A stretch of DNA of 64,000 bases from positions 2,790,001 through 2,854,000 of the forward strand of contig CP075497.1 of assembly GCA_021613535.1 (NCBI GenBank), read 5' to 3'. This document shows, in pieces, positions 4,740 through 60,602 of the stretch. The notes under the pieces were generated by a model. That model saw only the letters and a list, made by a program, of their open reading frames with translations, had not been told where the DNA came from and made no database searches. How positions within the stretch are numbered: position 1 is the first letter of the stretch; every line of letters starts with the position of its first letter. The DNA is from Adineta vaga (Eukaryota; Animalia; Rotifera). The translations under genes and the position numbers were made by a program.

Positions 4740-5549
4740 TGCAAAAAAATTCAATCAATTATTCAATAATTCTCTTCCAAATAATTCAATTTCTTTCATT
4801 TAACCTGTCTTATTCCTTATTTTGTTTTGTATTTACGTGTGTGTGTGTGTGTGCCCCGAACCTGGTACTAATGTCAAACTAGACAAATATTTCTATATTT
4901 CTTGATATACCTATTCTTGATAAAACAAATAAATAATAACAAACGTCAAACTTTGTTTTGTTATTTTAGACAATATATAATGGAATAAAATCATACTTTC
5001 AATTAATATCCTATTGTATTTGATTATCGATGTGTAGAACAGTAGTATCACGGCAATATGTCAAAGTTGAATTAGTTACTTCTACGAGCGAATATATATG
5101 TGTAAAACAAATTTGATAATCTATACGATCTATAATTTGAACAATGAGAATAACCTCTATATCAATACATAGCGAATGCTATTGAACTGAAGGAAAGAAA
5201 AAAACAATAGTGTAGATTTGAAGGTTTCCGGACAGATAAGCAACGAAAACTACGACGTTTCTACGTGTGAAAAACGTAATACTTTTCGCTGTTTGTCTGC
5301 ATGGGTTGTTATGAGGTGTAAAAAAACATTTCTCGATATCATCACGTGGTTTAATACTCGCTAGTATTTTTTTTTACATTCTTTTGATTACCGACGGTTC
5401 TCAAGTAAATATTCAGTATTATTTTTGAGAGATACGATAACATGGCATTCATTTTTAGTAGGTCATTCTCAAGCATACCAACTTTATCTTTGAAAAATAG
5501 TCTATGATGGAATGTTTCTTACACGTTTATTTCTGTTAGATTTTTTAGA

Positions 5550-7518
5550 ATGTTAATTAGATCCTCTCGATCATTGTGTGTGACTATTCATGCGCAATCT
5601 ATTCGTTTTTCATCTTCTTATACAAAATTATCTTTTCCAAATACAAAATTAACTCAAAGTTACTATCATCATTCATCAGATATACCACTTCTGAATCATA
5701 CAATTGGTCAACATTTAGATCAGTTAGCACAAGCATATCCCAATCATGAATGTTATGCATTTAAAGGTGAACGAAATAAACGATATACATATAAATCATT
5801 TCTTGATGAAGTTGATAGTCTTGCAACGAGTCTTATTGAATTGGGATTTGAAAAAGGTGATCGAATTGGTGTTTGGTTACCAAATACTTCACAAAAATGT
5901 GCGATGTCCTATGCAGTATCAAAAGTTGGCCTAATTAAAGTATGTTTATCTTGATTTCTACGTGTATCTATATGTGTAGTTTTAGGTACATATCAATCCT
6001 GCATATATGGAACGTGAATTAAGTTATTGTATTAATAAAGTAGGTTGTAAAGGATTAATGATGCGACCAAATGTACGAACAATTGATTGTATTAAAATAA
6101 TGAATCAAATTGCACCGGAACTTAGTGAAAGTAAAGGTGAATTAAATGCTAAATTGGTGCCAACATTGAAACATGTGATATTAACATCAGGTGACAATGA
6201 AACAACCAGTCATGTACCATCAGGTATGCATTCGTACGATGATCTTATACGTAAAGGTGCAGGACGTAATCAAGAAGAACGACGTAAACGTGAATTACAG
6301 ATGGATGGTGATACACCTGTTGCTATTTTTTATACATCAGGAACAACCGGTCAACCGAAAGCAGCTACATTAACAAATTCAAATTTGTACGTTCATTTGG
6401 GAAAAAAATTAAACTAAATCAATGAAATAGTTTGTTATTTTAGACTGAATAGTAGTGTTCCACTCTACTATAGTCATAATCCAGCATTTATGAGTCGTGC
6501 TTGTTGTCCTATACCTGCCTTTCATATCTTTGGTGAAATTGGTGGTACTTTGAATATCAATGGGCCAGGATATTTTACAGCATTTTCATCAATGTTACCA
6601 GATACGATTGAAACAATGCGTACTATACAAGAAGAGAAATGTACCGCATTGATAGGACCACCGATCATATTTCTAGATCTTTTTAATCATCCAAAAAGAA
6701 AAGAATATAATTTGAATTCACTTTTATTTGGTATAATTGGTGCTGCTCCAGTTAATCCGGCATTAATTGAACGTTTAGAACGTGAAATTCCAATTAAAAT
6801 AATATCTCAAGCGTATGGTCAAACAGAAAATACGGGTGCTTTAGTGATGAGTGTTTATGCAGGAGATAATAAGAAACATCGATATGCATCTGCTGGTAAA
6901 GCAATGCCTCGAATAGAAATCAAAATTGCGGATGCAAATGATCGAATTTTACCGATTGGTGAAGAAGGAGAAATTTGTGGACGTGGTTTCAATATAATGA
7001 AAGGTGGAAATTCGTTTATTTTGTTTGATAACATATCTATGCTTCGTCCTCTTCTTTTTATAGGTTATTATGGAGATGAAGAGAAAACACGATCAACTAT
7101 CAGTCCAACTGGTTGGTTAAGAACAGGTGATATTGGTATAATGGATGAAGATGGTTATATTTATTATCGAACACGTCAAAAAGAGATGGTTATTATTGGT
7201 GGTTTGAATGTTTATCCAGTTGAAGTAGAAAATTTTCTTTTGGAACATCCAAATATTGGTGAAGCACAAGTATTTGGTATTCCTGATCAACGATATGGTG
7301 AAGTACTTTGTGCATGGGTTAAACCAAAAGTGAATATGAAAATTGAAAACGTTGAAGAAATCAGAGAATTCTTAGAATCAAAAGTAGCATTTTATAAAGT
7401 ACCAAAACATGTGAAAGTTATCGAATCATTTCTTCCATATATGACGCCAACTGGTAAAGTACAAAAGTTTAAATTAACAGAAGCAATGGTCAGAGATCTC
7501 AAGAAATTATCTTCATAA
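5550..7518 (+). CDS. ACSF2: AMP-binding acyl-CoA synthetase, ACSF2-like, with probable mitochondrial presequence
   Basis: P-loop FYTSGTTGQPKA, AYGQTE, GWLRTGD, GGLNVYPVEVE, TPTGKVQKFKL. Arg/Ser-rich, acid-free N-terminus. Three short introns, including a 60-nt in-frame intron at 7004-7063. Confidence 0.85.
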
Positions 7519-19000: not shown

Positions 19001-20411
19001 TCAATTCGTTGACATGTTCGATATAATTTACCTAAATTTTATATAAAGAAGTTTTTATCAAATGAAATCTCAAGAATGTTATTTACCACTTTTAGCATTG
19101 CCAGGACATTGTTCTGTTACATTTTGACCAGCTGCAACTTTCGGCCATGTAATACTTAACTGACTTTCATTTTTACAATGTGGTCCTAAATCAATGAATA
19201 ATTTCAAATGAATTTTGTCATCAAGAAAGATCAATACCTTCATGTTTTCGACAATAATTATCACATGATTCATGAAGCCATTGTTGAGTAGGACAATTAT
19301 CTAAAGAAGTTAATCTTTCTTCTTGACAAAATGAAATGAGTTCGTTTTTTTTTGTTACCAAAAAGTGAAGAAATTCCAGATGGCCAATGAATTTTCACTT
19401 CTCCTTTAATATCATTAACAAAGTCCATCCAACTAACTGCATCTCCACATGCTTGTTTTTGCATATGACAATCAGTTGCTAATTGATCCAATTCATAATC
19501 TGTTAAAATCTTTTGCCATAGATTTAAATATGCTATTTCACCATGCAATGCTCGTTGATGATCGAATTCAACATCTCCTGTTGTACTCGTTTGTGTTAAA
19601 TTTTTCGGACGAATTGTTTGACCAACATAAAAATCACCACCACTCGGAATCATTGTTTGATGTTTGCGTTTTCCATGTGGAAAATTCCGTGGAATACTCA
19701 TTGTTACAACAGGTAAACCATTAATACGAATAATTAATTGTTTATTTCCAGAAAAATGATGTGCAATAGCAATGTGTTGCCATTGATCGATTGTTAAAGG
19801 AATTGAAACATCATAAATATGATTTAATAGTTCTACATGTAAACGAGAATTTTCAATAATTGAAACAAGTAAAATTGGAAGAGATTCATCTAAAATGTCG
19901 AGTTCGCAAATATGAATGAAAAATCTAATCTGAATAGTAAACCTGTTTTATAATAAATAATTGTATGATCAGGTGAATTTATTTTTGTCCAAATACGAAT
20001 CCAAAATGAAATTGTTAATTCAGAAATACGTGGAAATGGTTTACTATCAAGCTCAATATATGTTGAGAAATGTGTTCCATTAAATACAAGTCGAGAATCA
20101 ACTGCATCGGCTAAACAAAGAAAAATAATCTCACTTGATCTGTTTTCTTTTCAATGCCACAAAATAAAACTCTTCTCATACCAACACATGAATATCCATT
20201 CCAAAGATGACCTTGTCGACAAAGACATTCATAATGATCAAGTTTATCAAGGCAATTTGTCAATGGATAATATGCTGAATTACATGTTTCTATAAAATAA
20301 ATATACAAATAGAAAAAAATAAATCAGTTCTTTGAGTTTTTATTTACCAGTTGAATCCAATGTGTTAATTGTAACTATGACAATATAATGTATAAACAAA
20401 CTAATTCTCAT
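16067..20411 (-). CDS. Adhesion GPCR: signal peptide, EGF, pentraxin/LamG, HRM, GAIN/GPS, 7TM (secretin-like)
   Basis: EGF CLDKLDHYECLCRQGHLWNGYSC. Pentraxin GDFYVGQ...LHGEIAYLNLW. HRM WPKVAAGQNVTEQCP..RTC..W..C. GPS CVY..W..C..CSC..FAI. TM3 CRLVACTTHFFILSSYCWLMNEAFNLY; TM7 FNGLQGGFLF. Confidence 0.9.
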
Positions 20412-21487
20412 CTTCGTTGATCGTCATCGACAACTAAATTTAGTCACAAAGACGATCTTTTTTTCTCTTATTGAACATCGTCAAATGTGTTTGTCGTTGT
20501 TTTTTCTTCTTTTCTTTTGCTTCTCACCCGATTCTTTTCTTCTCCGATCGAATAGCTGAAAAAGAGAAAAAGAAAGAAACATAAGCAATCTTCTTTTCTT
20601 TTCTCTCTATTTCCGAACTTAATGATTCTACTAGAACGATTAGACCAAAGATTTGAATATGTCAAATCGTTTGCTGTTTTCCTCAAGGAGAAAATCAGCG
20701 ATAGAACGCGAGAATTTCTTTCTATTCTTTAGACTAGATCGAATAAATTATGTTTGTTCACTATGAATTTCAGATATGTTATTCATTTCGTTTGATATAG
20801 GTTTTCTCTGATGTACTTTTAATTGATCAATGCTCTTTCAGATTTGCTATTTACTTCACATAATACACAACACATGTAGAGATAGAAATAAGCAAACATT
20901 TACATTAAATAAATGATAGTTTTAAATACATCACGGAAAAGAAAACAATACAAGATCATTTGTTCAATATACATTAAATATTTCTTTGGTTGTTGTTCAT
21001 TGAGAAGACTATTTCTTAATTATTTTTTTATCATCATCTTCAGGAACTCACTATAGTTACTTTCATCGCTTGACGACTAATTAATCATAACATACTGAAA
21101 GCGAAAAAAGGTGCTATACAAAACTATTGAAAAATTTAGAATTAGTTACAAAATACGAAACTCTTTTTGGTTTACTACTAAAATCATTTTTTGATTTTCT
21201 ATGTATTATATATTCTTCAAATTGACGATTCCTATATCGATCAAAAATCTACTCGAAGATAATTTCAATCAAAATCTCTAAAACAATGTGAAAATCAATA
21301 AGTACGAAATCTTATATTTTCAATTCATTTTTATAATGTCTATCAATTGTCTGAAGTGAACAGAGGACCTCTATCGGACGCGTTGAGAATATGTTCATCA
21401 TGTGTCCGTTCGTCCATTCAGAATATGAACATTAGTCGTTGAGCTCAACCTGACCTGAACTTCCTCTATATTCGAAACTGAACAATT

Positions 21488-23665
21488 ATGCAATTAACAA
21501 CGCATTTATATTTTCTATTTCTGTTTTTTGTCTTCATTTCTTCAGTTATTGGAGATGGAGAATCGTTTTTTGACCCAAATGATTTCGACTGGTCGATTCG
21601 ACCTGCAGATGATTTTTTCCATTTTATTAATGGTAAATGGTTAAAACAAGCAATTATTCCACCGTCCAAGACAGAAATTGGAAGTATTTTTACTACATCA
21701 CACAATGTTTTAAAACAATTGAAAAGTATTCTTGATGATCTAACTAATAATGGAACATCTGAAGCACCACATCCCGTTGATTCAATACAACGAAAATTAG
21801 GTGATCTTTATTTAGCTGGTTTAGATCGTCTTACTATTGAAGAGACTGGTATTAAACCATTACAAGAAACGCTTCTTCAACTTGATAAAGTCAAAACATA
21901 TCAAGAATTAATTCATTTTATACTAGAATGGTATAGAAAAATGGATAAAGGTTTAATATTTGATTTTGATGTTTACCCAGATGAACGAAATACATCTCTA
22001 TATTCACCTAGTTGGAAAGTAATACAAATGCCATTTTCTTCAATAAAACGATATTAACTATAAGATTTTTGTTTTTTAGCAAACTGGTGTTGTTCTTCCT
22101 GATCGAGATTATTATTTTCGTAATGATCCATTTTCAAAAAGAATTCGATCAACTTACAAAAATTATATTAATCGAATGCTTAATTTAACAAATCATATTT
22201 TACACAGCACAACAGATTTCATCGATGCAGAAGATATTTTAACATTAGAAACTCAATTAGCTGTTTCACATTATACACCTACTCAATTACGTGATCCAAT
22301 TAAAAATTATAATAAATTATCCGTAATTGAACTTGATCGAATGATGCCAAATCTTGGTTGGCATCATATAATTCAACTTTTACAAATACCCAATGATACA
22401 GTTGTCATGCGTCAATTAGATTATTATCAATCATTAGATAAGTTAATTGTTAGTCAATCATTAAGTATATGGAAGAATAAAATTCGTTTTACAATTGCAC
22501 ATGAAATGGCACCTTATCTTACTGAAGATTTTCTCAATGCTCGACATCATATGTTTCAGTATTCACTTTATGGTCGACAACAAAGATCATCACAATCGAT
22601 GATTATTATTGAAAATATCAATGAATATGTTGGAGATTTATTAGGAAAATTATATGTCGATCGTTATTTTTCAAGTGAAGCAAAACAACGTGTTTTGAAT
22701 TTAACAAATCATTTGATGGATATTTACCGTAATCGACTTATGCGAAATAAATGGATGCATGATAAAACGAAAGAGAAAGCATTAATAAAATTAGATCAAA
22801 TGAGTAAAAAAATCGGTTATCCACCGCAATGGAAAACGTATGAAAATGTTCATACAAATCGATGGTCTTATTTTCAATCAATGGCAAGTATATTTGAATA
22901 TAATTTTCAGAAAAAAATTAATGATTTATCTCGACCAGTTGATAAATATGAATGGGACATATCCGTGCAAACTGTTAATGCATTTTATGTAAGTTTAAAA
23001 TTGTAAATCAATTCTTTTTTTCTTTTGCTTTTATATATAATTAGATAATATATTTATTGTAGATGCCAACAAAGAATGAAATCATATTTCCAGCTGGTAT
23101 TTTGCAAGAACCATTTTTTATGTCAGATGGAGATGATGCAATAAATTATGGTTCTATTGGAAGTTTTATAGGTCATGAAATGACTCATGGTTTTGATGAT
23201 CAAGGAAGAAAATATGATGAAAATGGTGTTCTAAATCCATGGTGGACGTCAGAAGATTTGAATCAATTTAGTAGTCGAACGACGATTCTTGTTAAACAAT
23301 TTAATGATTATAAATTATTTGATATAAATGTCGATGGTCTTTTAACTCTTGGAGAGAATCTTGCTGATCTTGGTGGAATTGAAATAGCTTATGAAGCATT
23401 TTTACAAACTAAACAAGCAAAAGAAGGAAAATTGATTGATGGTTTAACACCAAATCAACGATTTTTTCTCTCATATGCAAAAACATTAAGAATGAAAATG
23501 ACTGATGAAAGACTTCTAGCATTATTAATAGTCGATCCTCATTCACCAGCAATTTATAGAGTCAATGGACCATTATCAAATATCATGGGTTTTTATCAAA
23601 CATTTAATGTTACAGAAAATGATAAAATGTTTCGTGAACTTTCAATACGAGTCAACGTATGGTGA
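21488..23665 (+). CDS. Secreted M13 zinc metallopeptidase of bacterial (PepO-like) type, 680 aa, 3 exons
   Basis: Signal peptide; SIRPADDFFHFINGKW; VNAFY|; IIFPAGILQ; HEMTHGFDDQG; GENLADLGG; DPHSP..RVNGPLSN. Exons 21488-22018, 22080-22988, 23063-23665. No cysteines. Confidence 0.95.
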
Positions 23666-24216
23666 ACAGAAGTAATTTTTTTGTAAATAAAAAAATTTGT
23701 ACGTATATCGTATCTTGAATAATTAATACTTTAGTTCAGTAACAGAATGTTAAATATTAATTCAAATTAGATGTGAACTTTTTCGATCAATTCATTGATC
23801 TATGATTGACATATATCTTATTTCCTTTTGTCTAATATATGACAATACGAGGGATTATTTAGAAGAATGAAAAAACACAATATGTTACTTGTAACATTAA
23901 AGCTATTAACACATGATAGTTTTACTGTGTGGTAGCAAGATTCTCGTATAATTTACATTCTAGCAAACTACTTTCGATTTATTTATTCATTGGAGCAAAT
24001 AGATAAGAATGCAAGTTGAATGCATACTTATTATTTCTCAAAGGCTAATATATTTGTCATAATATTCCAACCTATATTGAGTTTTATATTACATATTGTA
24101 TACACACATTATTTTGACTAACTAATATTTTATTTCAATAACAAAATAGATGTATATAATGCAATAAATAGACTACTAAATATTATTGCAAATTAGAAAT
24201 AAACTTTCTCGAACAG

Positions 24217-25112
24217 TTATTTTGTAAGTTGAAATGAACCTTTAGCTGTGTCATAGATGGCAGAATGTGGATGATGTGATCCACATTCACCATTACAAAC
24301 TTCAACGGTAACGTTGTATGTTCCTGGTAACCATTCTTCACATGGTTCTAGATTGAAAAAGAGAAAAGATAATGATAAACAAGAGATTTATTAACGATGA
24401 ATATAATTACCTTGAGTTGGATCACATCGTGGATCAGGTTCAGCTTTAACACTGATTTTATCAGTATATGTACCAGCTTTTCTGGCTTCCAATAAGAAGC
24501 TAGTACCAAGTGGAATACGATCAGGACAATGGATACCAATGGCAAGTTCGCCAGTACCAGTTCCATTCATTGAAACATAAGTAAAATCAATATTAAATGT
24601 TGTTCCTTTAACACCACTTGGTGGAGTAATGGCAAATTTGGTGATTTTAGCATCACCATGATCATTGACTAGATGAGCAGACACAAAGTATTACATTATT
24701 ACGAAGTATACGAAATAATTCTTTATTTACCTGGACACATTTTAGCTATTTCACAATACCAAATTGGATCAATATCAGCTTTTTCAAGTAATTTAATAAA
24801 TTCTTCAATACCAAAAACATCACATACTAAATCACATACTGTGCCAATAAGAGCTGATCCAGTTTTTTGAGCTAAAGCTTGACATAATGTACCGCATGAA
24901 CCAATAATACCAGAATCAAGAATTAAATTAAGTAAAATATTAATTGATTGATCAGCAATATTGATACATGTTGGACAAAGATCAAGACGAACATTTGGTT
25001 GCAAAAAATTTGTTTTCAAATGTTTAATGTTGTGTGTGTTACCTTTGGCGACATTTGAAGCACTACTAATACCAACAATGGCAATAAGAATGCAAGCGAG
25101 TGTTTTGTACAT
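24217..25112 (-). CDS. Countin-like protein, copy 1 (signal peptide, saposin B-type domain, beta-rich C-terminal domain), 256 aa
   Basis: CPTC...LLNLILDSGIIGSCGTLC...VCDLVCDVFGIEEFIKLLEKADIDPIWYCEIAKMCP|VNDHGDA...GTGTG...|CEEWLPGTYNVTVEVCNGECGSHHPHSAIYD. Exons 25112-24731, 24668-24411, 24347-24217. Confidence 0.88.
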
Positions 25113-25241
25113 TATTTTGATGATTGTTTTTTTTACAATACACAAAAGAATGATTAGAGATGAAATTTCATGCATATAAATATCATCTTGATGAGAAAAG
25201 AATCACCTGAAAAATTGACAACGAAATTACACAAATGGTCC

Positions 25242-25254
25242 GATTTTCACACAA
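25242..25254. promoter_or_regulatory. Conserved 13-mer GATTTTCACACAA upstream of countin copy 1
   Basis: Identical to 26971-26983; lies 130 nt from the ATG versus 131 nt in copy 2, within otherwise diverged flanks. Confidence 0.5.
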
Positions 25255-25953
25255 AATATTTCTTCTACAAGATTCTGGGCCAATTGAGATTATTATTTCC
25301 AAGGTAATGAAATATAAATGCGCATCAATGAACGCTTTTGATCAGTTCAAAAAATCTTCGAGTAAATATTCATGCGAAGTAATACCTTTCAAATTTGAAA
25401 GTGATGAACATAGAAGTATACAATATCTTTGCTCATATTTTCTTCATATTCCAAATACTATTGTATAATTGTGACAAAAAGAAAGAATAACCTATTTTTC
25501 GAAGTGATAAATATAGAAAAACTCGGTCAAAATACACATGATTCGTATTTGAAGGACACACACACTTTTTTTTATAAAACGTCTGTTATTTTACTTTAAT
25601 AGACAATGATCGTGATATCTATGAATACCGATGTTAAGAATTGATAGTGACCAAGAAAAATATTTTAGTTGTCTGTTATACTAAATATTGTGTAGAGAAT
25701 TACTGTACAAGAATCTACTGTCGTGATTAAATCCGTTCTATCGTTGTCTTGTCAGTTTTGATGATGATGATGATGATGATGATTACTGGCACATGCCTTC
25801 TTTTTCTTTTCGAATACCGATAACGTCTTTCGTTAATTCTTTGTAAAAATTTTCTTTTTCTATGCATAATTTCTGTTTTATTATTTATATAAATATAATT
25901 TCGAAAATAATCTCTATTCCTACTACTCTATATTTCACAAAGGAAACATTATT

Positions 25954-26840
25954 TTAAAAAAATTTCTTCTTTGTTATTTCGAATGATCCTTTTGCTGTAT
26001 CATAAATCGACGAATGTGGATGATGTGAACCACATTCACCATTGCATACTTGAGCAGTAATATTATAAGTACCAATTGGCCAACCATCACACACTTCTAT
26101 AAAAAGATTTCAGTTTAATTTTAATTTTATTGGATAGTCTCTTTTTACCTTGACTTGGATCACAATTGAGTTCGAATAAAGTTTGAAAACCGATCTTTTC
26201 TGGATATGTACCAGGTTTTCTTGCTTCAAACCAATAGAGATTACCTGCTGTTCGATTTTTTGGATCGAGAAGTTCAACATTGATTGTTCCTGTTCCAGTA
26301 CCATTGACACTTATAAACGAACAATCAAATATAAATGTTGAACCTTCTGGTGCACTCTTTGGTGTAACTTGAAAATTGATAAATTTAGCATCACCATGAT
26401 CATTAACTAAAACAATAATCAAAATAATTCAATGGATAAATATGCAAATAGATCTTACTTGGACAAAGTTCAAGAATTTCACAATACCAGATTGGATCAA
26501 GATCCATTTTTATCAGTGCTTTAACAAATTCATCAATACCAAAGGCTTCACATGCAACTGAACAAAGATCACCAATAATTACAGATCCTGTTCGATTAGC
26601 AAGAGCTCCACATAAAGCACTACATGATTCAATAATTCCTTCATCAAGAATTAGATTCAGTAAAATATTGATCACTTCAACAGATTCTTCAATACATTCG
26701 GGACATAAATCAATACCTAATTTTGTTGGATTATACACAGAATCAAGACGTTGAAGCTTCTTTGGTTGATTTTTAAATGAAACTGAAGCACTTACACTTC
26801 CAATAACAACAAGAATGAAAAATAAGAAAGTTTTGTACAT
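25954..26840 (-). CDS. Countin-like protein, copy 2
   Basis: CPEC...LLNLILDEGIIESCSALC...DLDPIWYCEILELCP|INDHGDA...|CDGWPIGTYNITAQVCNGECGSHHPHSSIYD. Same two intron positions as copy 1. Confidence 0.88.
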
Positions 26841-26970
26841 TTTCAAAGTATATTAAAGAATATCTATGGAAATTATCATTCGTTTATATAAATCTCTGAT
26901 GAGAAATACAAAAGCTGATCAAAGCAAATGAGGCTATGCACTTTCAATAGTCAAATAACACAAGTGTTAG

Positions 26971-26983
26971 GATTTTCACACAA
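26971..26983. promoter_or_regulatory. Conserved 13-mer GATTTTCACACAA upstream of countin copy 2
   Basis: Identical to 25242-25254 at the same distance from the ATG; TATAAA-like box nearer the start. Confidence 0.5.
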
Positions 26984-27689
26984 TGTTTTTGAGTAAATGA
27001 TAACCTGGATGTAATCCAATAATTATTCCGCTGATTAACCATTTTCATATATTTACTATCAGACCTTATTATTTTTCTTACAATTCATCTTCTCATATGA
27101 TGAAACTAGATGTAAGGAATCGATTTTCATGATTCTATCCCTTATCATTTGAAAAAAAAGATTAAATTTGTACATCCGCTTCAGAGCAACAATAAATAAC
27201 AAACAAATCGATCGTATTTTTATTGACATGTAAAAACTTCTACACGTTTCGTCTCTTATCAGCAATGAAAGATAAATTTGCGTAAATATGTTGTCTGTTC
27301 GTTTATGAGAATTGTCTTTTTTGAAGTTAGATAAAGAGCAAAGTCTATTAATAGATCGTACTTTTCATCGATTTCTTCGTGATGAGAAACGAACAAGATG
27401 CTTTGTGGACTTCAGACGATGGTAAAACTTCATTATTGAGTCTTTTTTTATATTTAAAAGCGTACATAGAGATAACATTACATATCTGAGTGTAGAATCT
27501 CGACAGATAATTTGTACAAAGAAAATCGATATATGTTTCTTGAAGTTTATTTACTCATATTCAATACATTCTTTCAGATACTCAACAAATCCTAGTATAA
27601 TCGAGACAAGATCCTTTTCGATGTAACATATTAAACAAAAGTATAAATATGGAGTGTATAAAGTTTATTTCAAAGAAAAATCTATTAAT

Positions 27690-27837
27690 CTATTCTTCAT
27701 AGAGTGTAAAAGAACCATGAGCTGTATCGTACAAAGCTGTATGAGGATGATGTGAACCACATTGACCATTGCAAAGTAAAACTGTTACATTATAAGTACC
27801 TTCTAACCATTGTTCACATTGACCTAAACAGAAATGT

Positions 27838-27873
<36 letters not shown>

Positions 27874-28582
27874 TTTGTAATATTTACTTTCAGTTGGATC
27901 ACATTCAGGATCTGGAGTAGTATCAACTGTAATACGTTCACCGTATGTACCAGGTTTTTGAGCTTCAAGTAATAAACCAGCAGAAAGTGGAATCTTGTCG
28001 ACTGTTTTGATCATTAAAATCATTTCACCAGTACCAGTTCCATTTTTTGAAACATAAACCAAATCAAGAGCAATTTTACTACCTGTTTTAGCACGTGGTG
28101 GAAGAACAGCAAATGATTTGAATGTTGCATCACCATTATCATTGACTAAAAGCATAGAATTTTCCTTTTCTACCTGAATATTATTGTTCATACTTACTAG
28201 GACAGAGTTTCAGTGTTTCACAATAATAAATAGGATCAATATCAGCTTTGTTCATTAATTTAACAAATTCTTCAAGACCAATAAAATCACAACCCATTGT
28301 ACAAATAAATCCAAGTAATCCTGAACCAGTTTTTTCTTCTACAAGATCACATAAATGACCACAGCTATCCATAACACCATATTGAAGAATAATTTCAAGA
28401 ACAACTTGAACTAAATCATCAAATGTATTGATACATTGTGGACACCAATCAAGATTAACATCTTTTGTACTATGTGATAAAACACTACGTTGAATATGAG
28501 TTGATTGTGGAAAAAATTTACGTGTATCAGCAGTGATACCACCAATTAGAACAAGAAATACGATTACAAAAGATTTATACAT
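27690..28582 (-). CDS. Countin-like protein, copy 3
   Basis: CPQC...IILQYGVMDSCGHLC...ADIDPIYYCETLKLCP|INDNGDA...|CEQWLEGTYNVTVLLCNGQCGSHHPHTALYD. Same intron positions; (TA)n in intron 2. Confidence 0.88.
27842..27869. repeat. (AT)n microsatellite in intron 2 of countin copy 3
   Basis: Direct reading. Confidence 0.9.
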
Positions 28583-30629: not shown

Positions 30630-31174
30630 GTGCGTTAAACTGTTTAACTCGGACAAAAAATAGATTTAACTGAATAATCGTTAGAAAGAGAAAAAAAAAG
30701 AAAATCTTTTTTTTTCAAACTTGATCAATTTAAACAATGAAATCAATGATTAAAGTTCATCAAAATATATTCTTTTGTTTTGAAATCTCGTAGTAATCAG
30801 AAAATATAGAAAATATTCAACAACTAACTGAAGTAAAACATGTGTGGCATGTTGATAAACATATCAGACATTTCTCGTCATTTATTTTCATATTTTTGTG
30901 CACTTAACTATGTTTACTCGTAAATCTCTAGTCATTAGAAAAGCATTTCAATCGTAAGTAGAATATCTTTTTCAAAGGAAAATAATAACATAAGTCATCT
31001 GTTTTTTGTTGTTGACAGACGGTTGAAAAGAGAAAGAAAAAGTTGTTTTTGTCCTTGAAATATGAGAATTCATTTTTATTCTTCTTCTTCTTCAATTATG
31101 AAAATTGTTGTTCACTTTTCTTCCCTTCAAAAGAAAAATAACACGCACACATTATTTTCATAACATCGATTAAA

Positions 31175-31534
31175 ATGGCTAACCCACCCCATAATCGAGT
31201 TCATGGTCAAATCACTATCAAAGATGAACAAGAAAATTTTCAAGGAAATGAAATTCTTTATATTTCTGTACGCGATTCACTTCGACATGATGTTGAATGT
31301 ATTGAATTAGGTTCAACAACAATTCATTTACGTCAAGGACAACAAATGCCCATTCAATATCAATGTATATTCGATCCAAGCAAAGCGCATATGAAATTTG
31401 AACAAATTAAATCAATTCCTGGTGGAATAACTCTATCAGCGAGTATTGAACGAAATGATAAATTATTATATATAAATGATACAAATATTCCCTTAGACGA
31501 TGAAATTGATATTGAACTCGTAAAAGTTGAATGA
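31175..31534 (+). CDS. YbaY/YscW (bacterial lipoprotein/pilotin-like) family protein, intronless, no signal peptide
   Basis: Pattern VHGQIT...LYISVRDSLRHDV...QQMPIQYQCIFDP...LSASIERNDKLLYINDT...DIELVKV matches YbaY V.G.V....L.V.L.D.S.AD....Q.P..F.L.YDP....SA.I...G.L.FI.D......D..LV.V. Confidence 0.75.
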   Translation: MANPPHNRVHGQITIKDEQENFQGNEILYISVRDSLRHDVECIELGSTTIHLRQGQQMPIQYQCIFDPSKAHMKFEQIKSIPGGITLSASIERNDKLLYINDTNIPLDDEIDIELVKVE

Positions 31535-49647: not shown

Positions 49648-50507
49648 TTAAACAGTACATTCAGCTGGTTTATTCATTCCATTATATCGCGAACAAATAG
49701 CTTTAATGAAACTCTTTTCATCATGACCATCCGAACATCCATACCAAGTACCATCATGCATACACCAAAATTGACCATTCAAATTCATTGTACATGATTT
49801 CTTTGCCGAAGCGGATTTTGTTCTTTGTAATGATTGATGAAATAATTCATTTCCTTTATCAGATTTTACACATGTATCAATATCAGACCATTTAATTGAT
49901 CCATCAGATGCTTCTTTAAGACATTGTTCACCATTATTTGGAATATTTGCCAATTGTCTCGATTGACATTGAAGAAATTTGAGTAAAGTCGTTTGTGAAC
50001 ACATACTTTGAACACATAATTGTTGTTTATTACCTAAACATTCATCAGGTCCATGCATACATTCGATTTGATTTGTTTGAGTTTCATAAGCAATAAATGA
50101 AACAGTAAAATTTATAATTGAAGATAGTTTGATTAAACTAGGAGCAAATAATGTTTCACATTTTCTCGCATCGGGACATTTTGACATAACAAAAAATTCC
50201 ACACGAACAGGTTTATCTGAAATAACTAAAAATCAAAATGATGAAATCGTTTTATTGAATCAAATTATTGAGATTAATTACTAGTAAGAGTATCAGATGT
50301 TTGATAAGAACGATAAATTATAATTGTTCCCATGAAAAGTATTAATGGGAGAAGAATGGTAAGAAGTTTTTGATTCATCGGTAAACGTTGAAAGGAATAT
50401 AAACGACGATAATATTGACGCTAGAATAGATCATCAACAATGAAAAAGGATATTTTTCAATGATTAAAAGAGGTCTATTAGTTCAAGTATTACTCCAAAC
50501 TTACCAT
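49648..50507 (-). CDS. GILT (gamma-interferon-inducible lysosomal thiol reductase) family, type II anchored, CPDA active-site variant
   Basis: VRVEFFVMSKCPDA; CMHGPDECLGNKQQLC signature. ATG-only first exon (50505-50507 followed by gtaagt), then an N-terminal hydrophobic anchor. Confidence 0.88.
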
Positions 50508-59461: not shown

Positions 59462-60370
59462 TCAATCTTTCGGCGTTGATGGACGTAAAAGTGAGGTACT
59501 ATCTGGACGATACCATACATAATAAGTAATATACCAAAAGAAGACAGCAACAACAGCCGCAATAATCTTATGGAATGTATGATGAAAATATAAAGCTGTT
59601 GATAAAAGCATAAATTCCCATAGAATTGTCAATGCTGCTAATGCTACATAAAGAATTCGAATAATTTGTGAAAAGATTTTTAATTGTTCACGATTAGCAT
59701 TAGATAATGTATCTCCTTTCTCATTTGTTGATTTGCTCGCTTGATCAACTTTTCTTGTACCTTTATCATACGATTTAACTTCTTCATTGACAATTAATAA
59801 AGCATAGAGAAGTAAAAATGTATGTCCACTAAAATCATGTCCTTCTTGCCATTCATGTCCTCCTTTAATACAAACATGTCTTGGTGCACCTCGCAATTCT
59901 TCATGCTTGCACGTGCCGGTAAAGGATTCAAAATGAACAAATATCATTGTTATGATATACCAAACACCAGTAGCGATAAGTAAACGACTTAAATGACGTG
60001 TTACAATTTGATAATGACTATATGTTGTTATTAAAGTAAGATAAAGAAATGGAATCAATAAACCCATTGTCCATGCCCAACCTAATTTAGCAAAATATCG
60101 ATTGAATATATTGGATTTCTTCGATAGATAAGAATCGGGTGCTAATTGTAAGCTTTTTAAAATCGAACCAATGACAATAATTGCAAAAGAAACGAGAAGT
60201 TTAAATTTTGCTGGTCCAAATATAATTCGACGACAAAAAAATAAGGCTAGATCGCGAACAATATGATATACATCTAATAATAATGATGTTGGAGCTATAG
60301 CATCTGTCGATTTTGATGGCAATCCATGTCGAATTTGATTTGCATTTTCATTTGATTTACTCGTCGACAT
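59462..60370 (-). CDS. FITM2: Fat storage-inducing transmembrane protein (FIT2/Scs3 family), intronless CDS
   Basis: SNIFNRYFAKLGWAWT; GHDFSGHTFLL; EE; TALYFHH. Confidence 0.93.
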   Translation of the reverse strand: MSTSKSNENANQIRHGLPSKSTDAIAPTSLLLDVYHIVRDLALFFCRRIIFGPAKFKLLVSFAIIVIGSILKSLQLAPDSYLSKKSNIFNRYFAKLGWAWTMGLLIPFLYLTLITTYSHYQIVTRHLSRLLIATGVWYIITMIFVHFESFTGTCKHEELRGAPRHVCIKGGHEWQEGHDFSGHTFLLLYALLIVNEEVKSYDKGTRKVDQASKSTNEKGDTLSNANREQLKIFSQIIRILYVALAALTILWEFMLLSTALYFHHTFHKIIAAVVAVFFWYITYYVWYRPDSTSLLRPSTPKD

Positions 60371-60602
60371 TAGTTGAAAATATTCACTCGTAATATCTAA
60401 AGAAAAACGTTATGGTAAAAGAAATTCTGAATAAGTTTACTGTAATAAACAACGAGTAACGACATAGTCTATCCATGTTTTACCCATATTTGGTTAACAA
60501 TAAATTACCAATAGCTGATATATATTCTATTCTACGCTATAAACTTTAACATTACACGACATTTTTACTCATCAATAAGAAAATATTGGTTTTTATATCG
60601 AA

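What the first reader, a model, noticed from the sequence alone, without database searches (positions are those of the whole stretch)
24217..28582. Tandem trio of Dictyostelium countin-like secreted proteins in an animal genome
Seen: three same-strand paralogs of about 255-260 aa with the same two intron positions. Each has a signal peptide, a Cys-rich saposin domain, a beta-rich domain with NGTGTG, and a conserved C-terminal CNG(E/Q)CGSHHPH motif. The copies are well diverged at the protein level, so this is an old, maintained array. Knowledge: the whole layout (LLNxIL..G.I..C..LC; FIK...D.DPI..CE...C..ND; ..Y.V...CxGxCGSxHP) matches my recollection of Dictyostelium countin, a subunit of the secreted counting factor that sets aggregate size. 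Saposin folds bind lipids and include pore-forming antimicrobials. Inference: a secreted lipid-binding or density-sensing/antimicrobial module whose function in animals is essentially uncharacterised. The His/Cys-rich motif may bind a metal.
Basis: partly seen in the sequence, partly recalled or inferred. Interest (0 to 1): 0.85.

Follow-up and report, generated by a model that had tools for sequence, protein, structure and literature searches.

The report
Ancient countin gene trio in rotifer
A bdelloid rotifer expresses three old tandem copies of countin, a protein known from slime moulds as a cell-counting signal but also carried by molluscs, amphioxus, sponges and many protists, where it likely works as a secreted lipid-binding helper for digesting microbial food rather than as a counting signal.

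Summary
Three minus-strand, three-exon genes (256, 260, 258 aa; 42-51% identical) are spliced and polyadenylated in public runs. The middle protein is identical to a record named Adineta vaga I4U23_028133. They are true countin-family members: 31% identical over 221 aa to Dictyostelium countin-2, with a signal peptide, an eight-cysteine saposin domain and an Ig-like beta-sandwich. They are not a rotifer oddity. Named homologues occur in molluscs, a brachiopod, an annelid, amphioxus, sponges, amoebae and a malawimonad, and NCBI already labels many 'countin-like'. Bdelloid copies nest among animal sequences, share an animal-type two-cysteine loop, and a bdelloid-plus-dictyostelid clade is rejected. 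The order C-B-A and both flanking genes recur in other contigs, so the array is old. Best reading (about 50%): an acidic, secreted or lysosomal lipid-extraction helper for digesting microbes. Counting is probably a dictyostelid specialisation. The Cys-His motif is more likely a disulfide loop than a metal site. Function in animals is untested; my literature searches found only table mentions. Known family, open function: moderate-to-low interest.

The parts
24217..25112 (-). Gene A, countin A-type, 256 aa; exons 25112-24731, 24668-24411, 24347-24217
   Evidence: Gene model; both introns spliced in 3 runs, poly(A)-type ends at 24109/24112; 75% identical to A. vaga I4U23_014718
25954..26840 (-). 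Gene B, countin B-type, 260 aa; exons 26840-26459, 26406-26149, 26096-25954
   Evidence: 100% identical to P0073, named Adineta vaga I4U23_028133; both introns spliced, poly(A)-type end at 25850; folded
27690..28582 (-). Gene C, countin C-type, 258 aa; exons 28582-28198, 28145-27888, 27823-27690
   Evidence: Gene model; intron 1 spliced in 3 runs, intron 2 bridged by contiguous pieces in 2 runs, poly(A)-type end at 27650; 76% identical to A. steineri P0103
24735..24977 (-). Saposin-like domain of A (C46-C126, eight cysteines, acidic)
   Evidence: family profile matches the AOAH saposin subunit, E 4.9e-6
26463..26705 (-). Saposin-like domain of B (C46-C126), five helices in the model
   Evidence: weak Foldseek rows led by saposins
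28202..28444 (-). Saposin-like domain of C (C47-C127)
25966..26406 (-). Ig-like beta-sandwich of B (about residues 131-257, exons 2-3) with the animal-type C209-C216 loop; A and C have the same domain in their exons 2-3
   Evidence: Model; VIA Z 11.0-11.5, rmsd 2.0-2.6, 105-112 residues to the AlkC Ig-like domain and the Wzt carbohydrate-binding domain
24265..24297 (-). CNGECGSHHPH motif of A (same motif in B at 26014-26046 and in C at 27741-27773)
   Evidence: Sequence; conservation
21482..23665 (+). Conserved downstream neighbour, tail to tail: M13 metallopeptidase with an N-terminal hydrophobic segment (not shown to be functionally linked)
   Evidence: Pfam M13; last exon scores best against bacterial PepO/Zmp1 chains; same position in L011, L016, L017, L046, L063, L066
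29192..29578 (-). Conserved upstream neighbour: MYEOV2-like small acidic protein gene
   Evidence: Pfam PF15004; upstream of the countins in L022, L046, L057, L067, L072

Best explanation
These are three expressed, long-maintained countin-family genes, likely inherited from the animal ancestor, whose products are predicted to be secreted into the gut or acidic digestive compartments and likely pull lipids out of the membranes of ingested microbes for hydrolases to act on. Shown: genes, splicing, signal-type N-terminus, no transmembrane tail, acidic saposin domain with amphipathic helices, Ig-like second domain, family membership, conserved order. Inferred: (1) secretion or lysosomal delivery; (2) at low pH the acidic saposin domain binds and opens on a membrane and lifts out lipid, as lysosomal saposins and the AOAH saposin subunit do; (3) the Ig-like domain, braced by disulfides C209-C216 and C231-C235, docks the protein on a glycan or on a partner hydrolase; (4) the three paralogues split substrates or sites of action; (5) cell counting in Dictyostelium is a later use of the same protein.
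For: Family membership and breadth. Closest solved sequence relative of the helical domain is the saposin subunit of acyloxyacyl hydrolase (E 4.9e-6), then human saposins; PDB titles show AOAH bound to LPS and lipid A. Saposin segment net negative in 25 of 25 bdelloid, 31 of 31 other animal and 11 of 11 amoebozoan rows; amphipathic helices; hydrophobic N-terminus in 165 of 176 Met-start rows and no C-terminal hydrophobic anchor in any of 176 (a simple hydropathy rule). A 'countin-like' transcript is among the 30 most expressed in mussel digestive gland, 1.18 times actin, beside trypsin and cathepsin L (PMC4203926, table passage). Two other counting-factor subunits, CF45-1 and CF50, are lysozymes, CF50 strongest at acid pH (PMC13399256, passage), and cf50-1 knockouts grow poorly on bacteria (PMC4605714, passages). 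Recombinant countin had only marginal pore-forming activity (as cited in PMC5890168). Size regulation by counting factor is suggested to be elaborated in dictyostelid group 4 (PMC4931340, passage). The named carriers are mostly phagotrophs, filter feeders or grazers (my knowledge).
Against: No lipid binding, localisation or knock-down data exist here for any animal member. The saposin domain folded alone matched solved saposins only weakly (Foldseek best E 0.58, rmsd 5-10; VIA best Z 4.9 to unrelated helical proteins, saposin-like chains at Z 3.9-4.1), so it may be locked in an unusual shape. The Ig-like match is generic: its two best hits are tied and unrelated in function. The mussel transcript was identified by name only; I did not see its sequence. 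A review states that a bactericidal role of CF45-1 and CF50 is untested. On origin: a constraint joining bdelloids with amoebozoans against other named animals only was not rejected (p-AU 0.174), one sponge sequence falls outside the animal-rich clade, and two unnamed animal-like genomic loci break their coding sequence at other places than the bdelloid introns.
Confidence: 0.5

Rival explanations
1. Acid-activated pore-forming or membrane-permeabilising antimicrobial, like amoebapores, acting in the gut or on pathogens.
For: Saposin-like domain with amphipathic helices; Dictyostelium saposin-like AplD forms pores and defends against bacteria (PMC5890168, title and passages); acid-active pore formers need not be cationic at neutral pH (my knowledge).
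Against: Net charge of the domain is -3 to -13 in bdelloids; recombinant countin showed only marginal pore-forming activity (cited); the domain is tied to a 125-residue Ig-like domain with no linker in the model (pTM 0.81).
Confidence: 0.17
2. Housekeeping lysosomal lipid or sterol carrier, with the second domain working like an ML/NPC2 lipid pocket, not specific to microbial food.
For: Yeast NPC2 appears in the Foldseek list (E 5.2e-4); Pfam ML domain weakly hits 3 of 135 members (best E 0.0094); acidic saposin domain.
Against: By structural Z the best rows are AlkC, Wzt and glycosidase Ig domains; Pfam Wzt_C hits 4 of 135 equally weakly; very high expression in a digestive organ fits food handling.
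Confidence: 0.15
3. Secreted density or crowding signal, a counting factor in an animal.
For: [quoted passage not shown]
Against: The rotifer triplication is independent of the dictyostelid one (separate clades); the Ser/Gly tail of dictyostelid countins is absent; counting was probably elaborated in group 4 dictyostelids; the family is present in many non-aggregating organisms.
Confidence: 0.08
4. The CxGxCGSxHPH loop binds a metal or forms a small catalytic site.
For: C231 and C235 in 189 of 191 rows, H239 in 167 of 191, both His in 122 of 191; conserved acidic residues D113 and D115 (179 and 182 of 191) could add ligands.
Against: Secreted protein; the two Cys are lost together in the only 2 rows that lack them; H238 is kept in only 26 of 191 and H241 in only 3 of 11 amoebozoan rows.
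Confidence: 0.07
5. Origin rival: bdelloids acquired the gene horizontally from an amoebozoan or other protist.
For: Bdelloids take up foreign genes often (search listings); intron positions differ from two animal-like loci; the loose AU test was not rejected (p 0.174); no monogonont rotifer among the named rows that I saw (120 of 333 hits listed).
Against: A scores 289 bits to Mytilus and 274 to amphioxus against 114-144 to dictyostelids; bdelloids (99/97) lie in a 96/99 clade with 19 of 20 other named animal rows; bdelloid plus dictyostelid clade rejected, p-AU 8.8e-5; two-Cys loop in 23 of 25 bdelloid, 30 of 31 other animal, 0 of 11 amoebozoan rows; GC of the region is like the rest of the window.
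Confidence: 0.05

Closest known systems
Dictyostelium countins (countin-2, CTNB_DICDI, Q8WSR7; CtnA, CtnC)
   Same: Signal peptide, eight-Cys saposin domain with the D-x-D-P motif, beta domain with G-x-Y and CxGxCG..H; 29-31% identity over 221-229 aa to countin-2 and 30-37% to a D. citrinum countin.
   Different: No Ser/Gly-rich tail; extra C209-C216 loop; independent triplication; no evidence for a counting complex.
Invertebrate 'countin-1-like / countin-3-like' proteins (molluscs, Lingula, Owenia, Branchiostoma, Oopsacas, Sycon)
   Same: Same architecture and length; 33-57% identity to the window proteins; same two-Cys loop except Sycon.
   Different: Bdelloids carry three diverged subfamilies in a fixed order, on at least two chromosome-scale contigs in A. 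vaga; intron positions appear to differ from two unnamed animal-like loci.
Acyloxyacyl hydrolase small subunit and lysosomal saposins A-D
   Same: Best solved sequence relatives of the helical domain (E 4.9e-6 and 0.03-0.5); top weak fold rows.
   Different: One saposin domain with eight Cys, fused to an Ig-like domain, no hydrolase domain and no prosaposin repeats.
Wzt carbohydrate-binding domain, AlkC Ig-like domain, ML/NPC2 domains
   Same: Ig-like beta-sandwich; Z 11.0-11.5 for Wzt and AlkC; NPC2 at Foldseek E 5e-4.
   Different: Identity 10-17%; a shared common fold, no shown homology or ligand.

Membership tests
Countin family | Full-length homology to a named countin | tested here: met
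   Profile A1 hits CTNB_DICDI over positions 36-255, E 1.4e-37; B versus countin-2 31% over 221 aa
Countin family | Signal peptide plus single saposin-like domain | tested here: met
   Hydropathy and Cys pattern; eight Cys in 190-191 of 191 rows; no dedicated signal-peptide predictor was available
Countin family | C-terminal beta domain with CxGxCG..H | tested here: met
Dictyostelid countins (narrow sense) | Ser/Gly-rich C-terminal tail | tested here: not met
   Present in the six dictyostelid rows shown, absent in the window proteins
Counting factor system | Complex with CF45-1, CF50 and CF60 | not testable with these tools
   No rotifer genome is held and no interaction data
Counting factor system | Controls group size or senses density | not testable with these tools
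   Needs experiments
Saposin-like proteins (SAPLIP) | Six-Cys pattern on four or five amphipathic helices | tested here: met
   Pfam Saposin weakly in 12 of 135 members, none for B itself
Saposin-like proteins (SAPLIP) | Structural match to solved saposins | tested here: inconclusive
   Foldseek: no E under 0.001, but the first 18 rows shown are all saposin-like chains; VIA best Z 4.9
Prosaposin | Several tandem saposin domains released by cleavage | tested here: not met
   One saposin domain per gene, followed by an Ig-like domain
Cationic lytic SAPLIPs (NK-lysin, granulysin; charge criterion recalled) | Net positive charge | tested here: not met
   Net -3 to -13 in 25 of 25 bdelloid rows
ML / NPC2 / MD-2 domain | Closest fold and profile match, with a lipid pocket | tested here: inconclusive
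   Weak Pfam (3 of 135) and Foldseek (E 5e-4) hints; pocket could not be inspected
Horizontally acquired bdelloid gene | Nearest relatives non-metazoan | tested here: not met
   caveat
Cys-His metal-binding motif | Free thiol and His ligands with bound metal | not testable with these tools
   Conservation pattern favours a disulfide

The most novel reading that the evidence does not exclude
Countins are an overlooked, ancient system of microbe-eating eukaryotes for stripping bacterial envelopes: the saposin domain holds lipid A or other glycolipid acyl chains as in acyloxyacyl hydrolase, the Ig-like domain grips the sugar part as the Wzt domain grips O-antigen, and the proteins work with lysozymes and peptidases. 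The bdelloid C-B-A trio would be three specialised versions kept beside a bacterial-type peptidase, and the famous counting role in Dictyostelium would be a co-option of digestive machinery.
Probability: 0.15. Interest if true: 0.7.

Novelty: new member of a known kind. Interest (0 to 1): 0.33.

Why it matters
The genes themselves are expected members of a family that databases already label. What is of value is the reframing: a protein known only as a Dictyostelium cell-counting subunit is a two-domain saposin plus Ig-like protein spread across animals and protists, highly expressed in a mussel digestive gland and triplicated early in bdelloids. If it is a digestive lipid or LPS handler, it would supply the missing biochemical activity of countin and show a signal built from feeding machinery. 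A. vaga, with three expressed paralogues and a bacterial diet, is a practical animal in which to test that.

Tried and rejected
Pfam on exons and on close homologues: 0 families for 13 of 13 proteins. ESM Atlas: only countin-like or unnamed saposin clusters; no named cluster; the C-terminal part alone could not be searched. Homodimer prediction of B residues 40-257: no answer, score 0.00, no evidence either way. Saposin domain by VIA: nothing above Z 4.9. NPC2/ML chains are not among the top 50 rows by Z; this does not exclude them. A 4188-aa bacterial adhesin hit (P0180) is a sum of 27 weak repeat matches of about 10 bits each and was dropped. A record labelled Escherichia coli (P0118) branches among gastropods and was treated as mislabelled. 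First tree run kept only 40 rows through a too strict filter and was discarded. Two scans of IMG/VR found no countin. Expression under stress: no row found for 'countin' or the locus numbers in supplements of PMC10809525 (1 file), PMC12220480 (1 file, cut when stored) or PMC11258130 (12 of 16 files, plus file 13; files 9, 11, 16 and one oversized table unseen); unseen parts may hold the data and gene numbering may differ. GATA-site enrichment upstream: 0, 3 and 0 sites per 250 nt against 1.0 expected, no signal. Earlier findings of this scan: none. PMC4769524 mentions only a different protein. Absence from vertebrates, arthropods or nematodes was not tested: only 120 of 333 and 150 of 848 hits were listed.
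Full report
1. What is in the sequence. Six-frame translation and splice enumeration give one consistent model per gene: A 25112-24217, B 26840-25954, C 28582-27690, all on the minus strand, transcribed in the order C, B, A, each with two short phase-1 GT-AG introns at the same aligned codons. Proteins are 256, 260 and 258 aa, 41.6-51.2% identical. Third positions of four-fold codons differ at 25 of 55, 20 of 59 and 24 of 48 sites. GC in the region (0.28-0.30) is like the rest of the window. B is letter for letter P0073, named Adineta vaga I4U23_028133, so the window is most likely from that bdelloid rotifer.

2. Expression. Of 22 runs listed I laid 4. Three, from three coded studies, skip five introns exactly as modelled and give no depth in the middle of both intergenic gaps; intron 2 of C is bridged by contiguous pieces in two of them. 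One run shows poly(A)-type loose ends past each stop, so each gene has its own 3' end. The fourth run is unspliced and covers all 30 bins. These are contigs, so levels cannot be ranked, and their RNA status is the tool's guess. Of 16 coding differences seen in the runs, 3 of 3 in A and 5 of 6 in B are silent, but 6 of 7 in C change a residue, all conservatively; the numbers are small.

3. Family. Pfam names nothing for the window proteins. A profile of 25 close homologues found 333 proteins (120 listed) and 848 clusters at 50% identity (150 listed). Named rows include bdelloids, bivalves, gastropods, a chiton, Lingula, Owenia and Branchiostoma, many already called countin-1-like or countin-3-like. 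Of 30 hits looked up by exact sequence, 14 carried an organism name: D. discoideum countin-2 (CTNB_DICDI), D. citrinum, Cavenderia, Cavostelium, Luapelamoeba, Pellita, Endostelium, the malawimonad Gefionella, the sponges Oopsacas and Sycon, Patella and Branchiostoma among them (12 organisms are listed here; I count conservatively 12 of 30 with a species name, the other 18 had none). B aligns with countin-2 at 31% over 221 aa through both domains. That D. citrinum P0287 is the CtnA orthologue is my recollection, not a call result.

4. Anatomy. The model of B (135 sequences, pLDDT 87, pTM 0.81) has five helices at 46-122 and a beta-sandwich at 135-255. The helical part has eight cysteines kept in 190-191 of 191 rows; its best solved sequence relative is the saposin subunit of acyloxyacyl hydrolase (E 4.9e-6), then human saposins. 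Folded alone it gives no significant fold match, although the leading Foldseek rows are all saposin-like and VIA gives nothing above Z 4.9. It is acidic in every named row (67 of 67; 5 of 124 unnamed rows are net positive). The sandwich is Ig-like; best Z 11.0-11.5 to the AlkC Ig-like domain and the Wzt carbohydrate-binding domain, closely followed by glycosidase Ig domains; yeast NPC2 appears at Foldseek E 5e-4. This is a common fold and shows no function. C231 and C235 are both present in 189 of 191 rows and both absent in the other 2; the loop cysteines C209 and C216 occur as a pair in 85 rows, singly in 5, not at all in 101. Both patterns fit disulfides. The N of NGTGTG is a glycosylation sequon in 121 of 191 rows.

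5. Origin. From 191 near full-length rows I kept 72 for IQ-TREE (LG+G4, no mixture, bootstrap not fully settled; near-duplicates, most unnamed rows, one long Patella row and a row labelled E. coli left out; two unnamed rows were labelled bdelloid by placement). Bdelloids form one clade (99/97) inside a 96/99 clade with 19 of 20 other named animal rows and 6 unnamed rows; Sycon falls outside, with Gefionella. Forcing bdelloids with six dictyostelid rows against all others is rejected (p-AU 8.8e-5; part of the cost may come from pulling in Cavenderia). A looser constraint, bdelloids plus ten amoebozoans against named animals with unnamed rows free, is not rejected (p 0.174); it can be met by moving bdelloids to the base of the animal clade, so it does not show transfer. 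Both tests were run after the tree was seen. The two-Cys loop is in 23 of 25 bdelloid rows (B counted twice through P0073), 30 of 31 other animal rows and 0 of 11 amoebozoan rows. Against simple descent: two unnamed animal-like loci (L074, L076) break near residues 72, 111, 148 and 229 instead of 128 and 214. Vertical inheritance with intron turnover is the best reading.

6. Age of the array. A, B and C each have closer relatives in other bdelloid species than in each other. B splits into two subclades, each with Adineta, Rotaria and Didymodactylos; the second holds A. vaga I4U23_014717, numbered next to the A-type I4U23_014718 on a different, 20.35 Mb contig. A Rotaria model fuses a B-type to an A-type copy. 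Of 77 metagenome loci I classified 13; 10 hold two or more copies and all 10 fit the order C, B, A (two rest on short, weakly typed end pieces); L066 has all three, while L011 and L063 lack A and L046 lacks C. The M13 peptidase lies tail to tail in six loci and the MYEOV2-like gene upstream in five. That these contigs are bdelloid is inferred from shared introns and identity. The triplication thus likely predates the old genome doubling of bdelloids (that doubling is from my knowledge and search listings).

7. How it likely works. See Best explanation. The chain is: secretory entry (predicted), acidic saposin domain (shown) acting on membranes at low pH (inferred from lysosomal saposins and AOAH), Ig-like docking domain (fold predicted, role inferred). 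Context from papers, all seen as passages only: a countin-like transcript ranks among the top 30 in mussel digestive gland (PMC4203926); CF45-1 and CF50 are lysozymes with an untested bactericidal role (PMC13399256); cf50-1 mutants grow poorly on Klebsiella and Bacillus (PMC4605714); recombinant countin forms pores only marginally (PMC5890168 citing Gao 2002; the primary papers were not seen); counting was probably elaborated in group 4 dictyostelids (PMC4931340); countins are noted as saposin-domain proteins (PMC11542183). I put the digestive lipid-helper reading at 0.5.

8. What is known. Searches of the held library: 'countin' whole word, 78 papers, 40 listed; countin-1/-3/-like, 5 of 5 listed; countin with Dictyostelium and saposin, 3; ctnA with phagosome, 1; countin with animal terms, 15 of 1,801 listed, none with countin; for context. 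Animal countin-like genes appeared only as table rows (mussel, oyster PMC9498863, abalone PMC9936805) and Naegleria copies by similarity (PMC6831594). I found no functional or evolutionary study of animal countins there; subscription papers and unseen supplements may hold one.

9. Verdict. Real, expressed, old; a new member of a known family; not a transfer story; function open, most likely digestive. Interest 0.33.

Noticed in passing
L028:4995-5723 and L030:1899-2618 (L031 similar): Intronless, intact countin ORFs with signal-type N-termini on gene-dense, low-GC contigs that look like giant viruses (thymidylate synthase, DUF5760, dual-specificity phosphatase, KH protein next to L028). Closest to unnamed protist-like rows at 51-53%. 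Not found in IMG/VR by two pattern scans. Viral origin is inferred, host unknown.
   Followed up: partly
window 21482-23665 (+): Three-exon M13 metallopeptidase whose last exon scores higher against bacterial PepO/Zmp1 (184-196 bits) than human ECE-1 or neprilysin (135-165 bits): a candidate foreign gene, kept tail to tail with the countin array in six other loci.
   Followed up: partly
window 27707-28370 (gene C): 6 of 7 coding differences in public runs change a residue in C, against 1 of 9 in A and B.
   Followed up: no
window 25189 and 26897: A and B share a 10-nt element just upstream of a TATA-like stretch about 60-80 nt before the start codon; C has a looser version; a third exact copy lies at 27380.
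   Followed up: partly
window 31142-31534 (+): Small ORF matching the bacterial YscW lipoprotein-chaperone family above its cut-off, conserved at 68% in L046: another candidate foreign gene.
   Followed up: no
P0129, P0257, P0133, P0227: Unnamed homologues with two whole countin units in one chain (P0129, P0257) or with an added Pro-rich linker and Cys-rich C-terminal module (P0133, P0227).
   Followed up: no
P0118: A countin recorded as Escherichia coli branches among gastropods, probably a mislabelled record.
   Followed up: partly
window 5508-7518 (+), 49648-50232 (-), 59462-60409 (-), 19297-19947 (-): Ordinary neighbours: AMP-binding acyl-CoA synthetase, GILT lysosomal thiol reductase, FIT protein, and a pentraxin-like exon of a larger receptor-like gene whose position is conserved in L046.
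   Followed up: no
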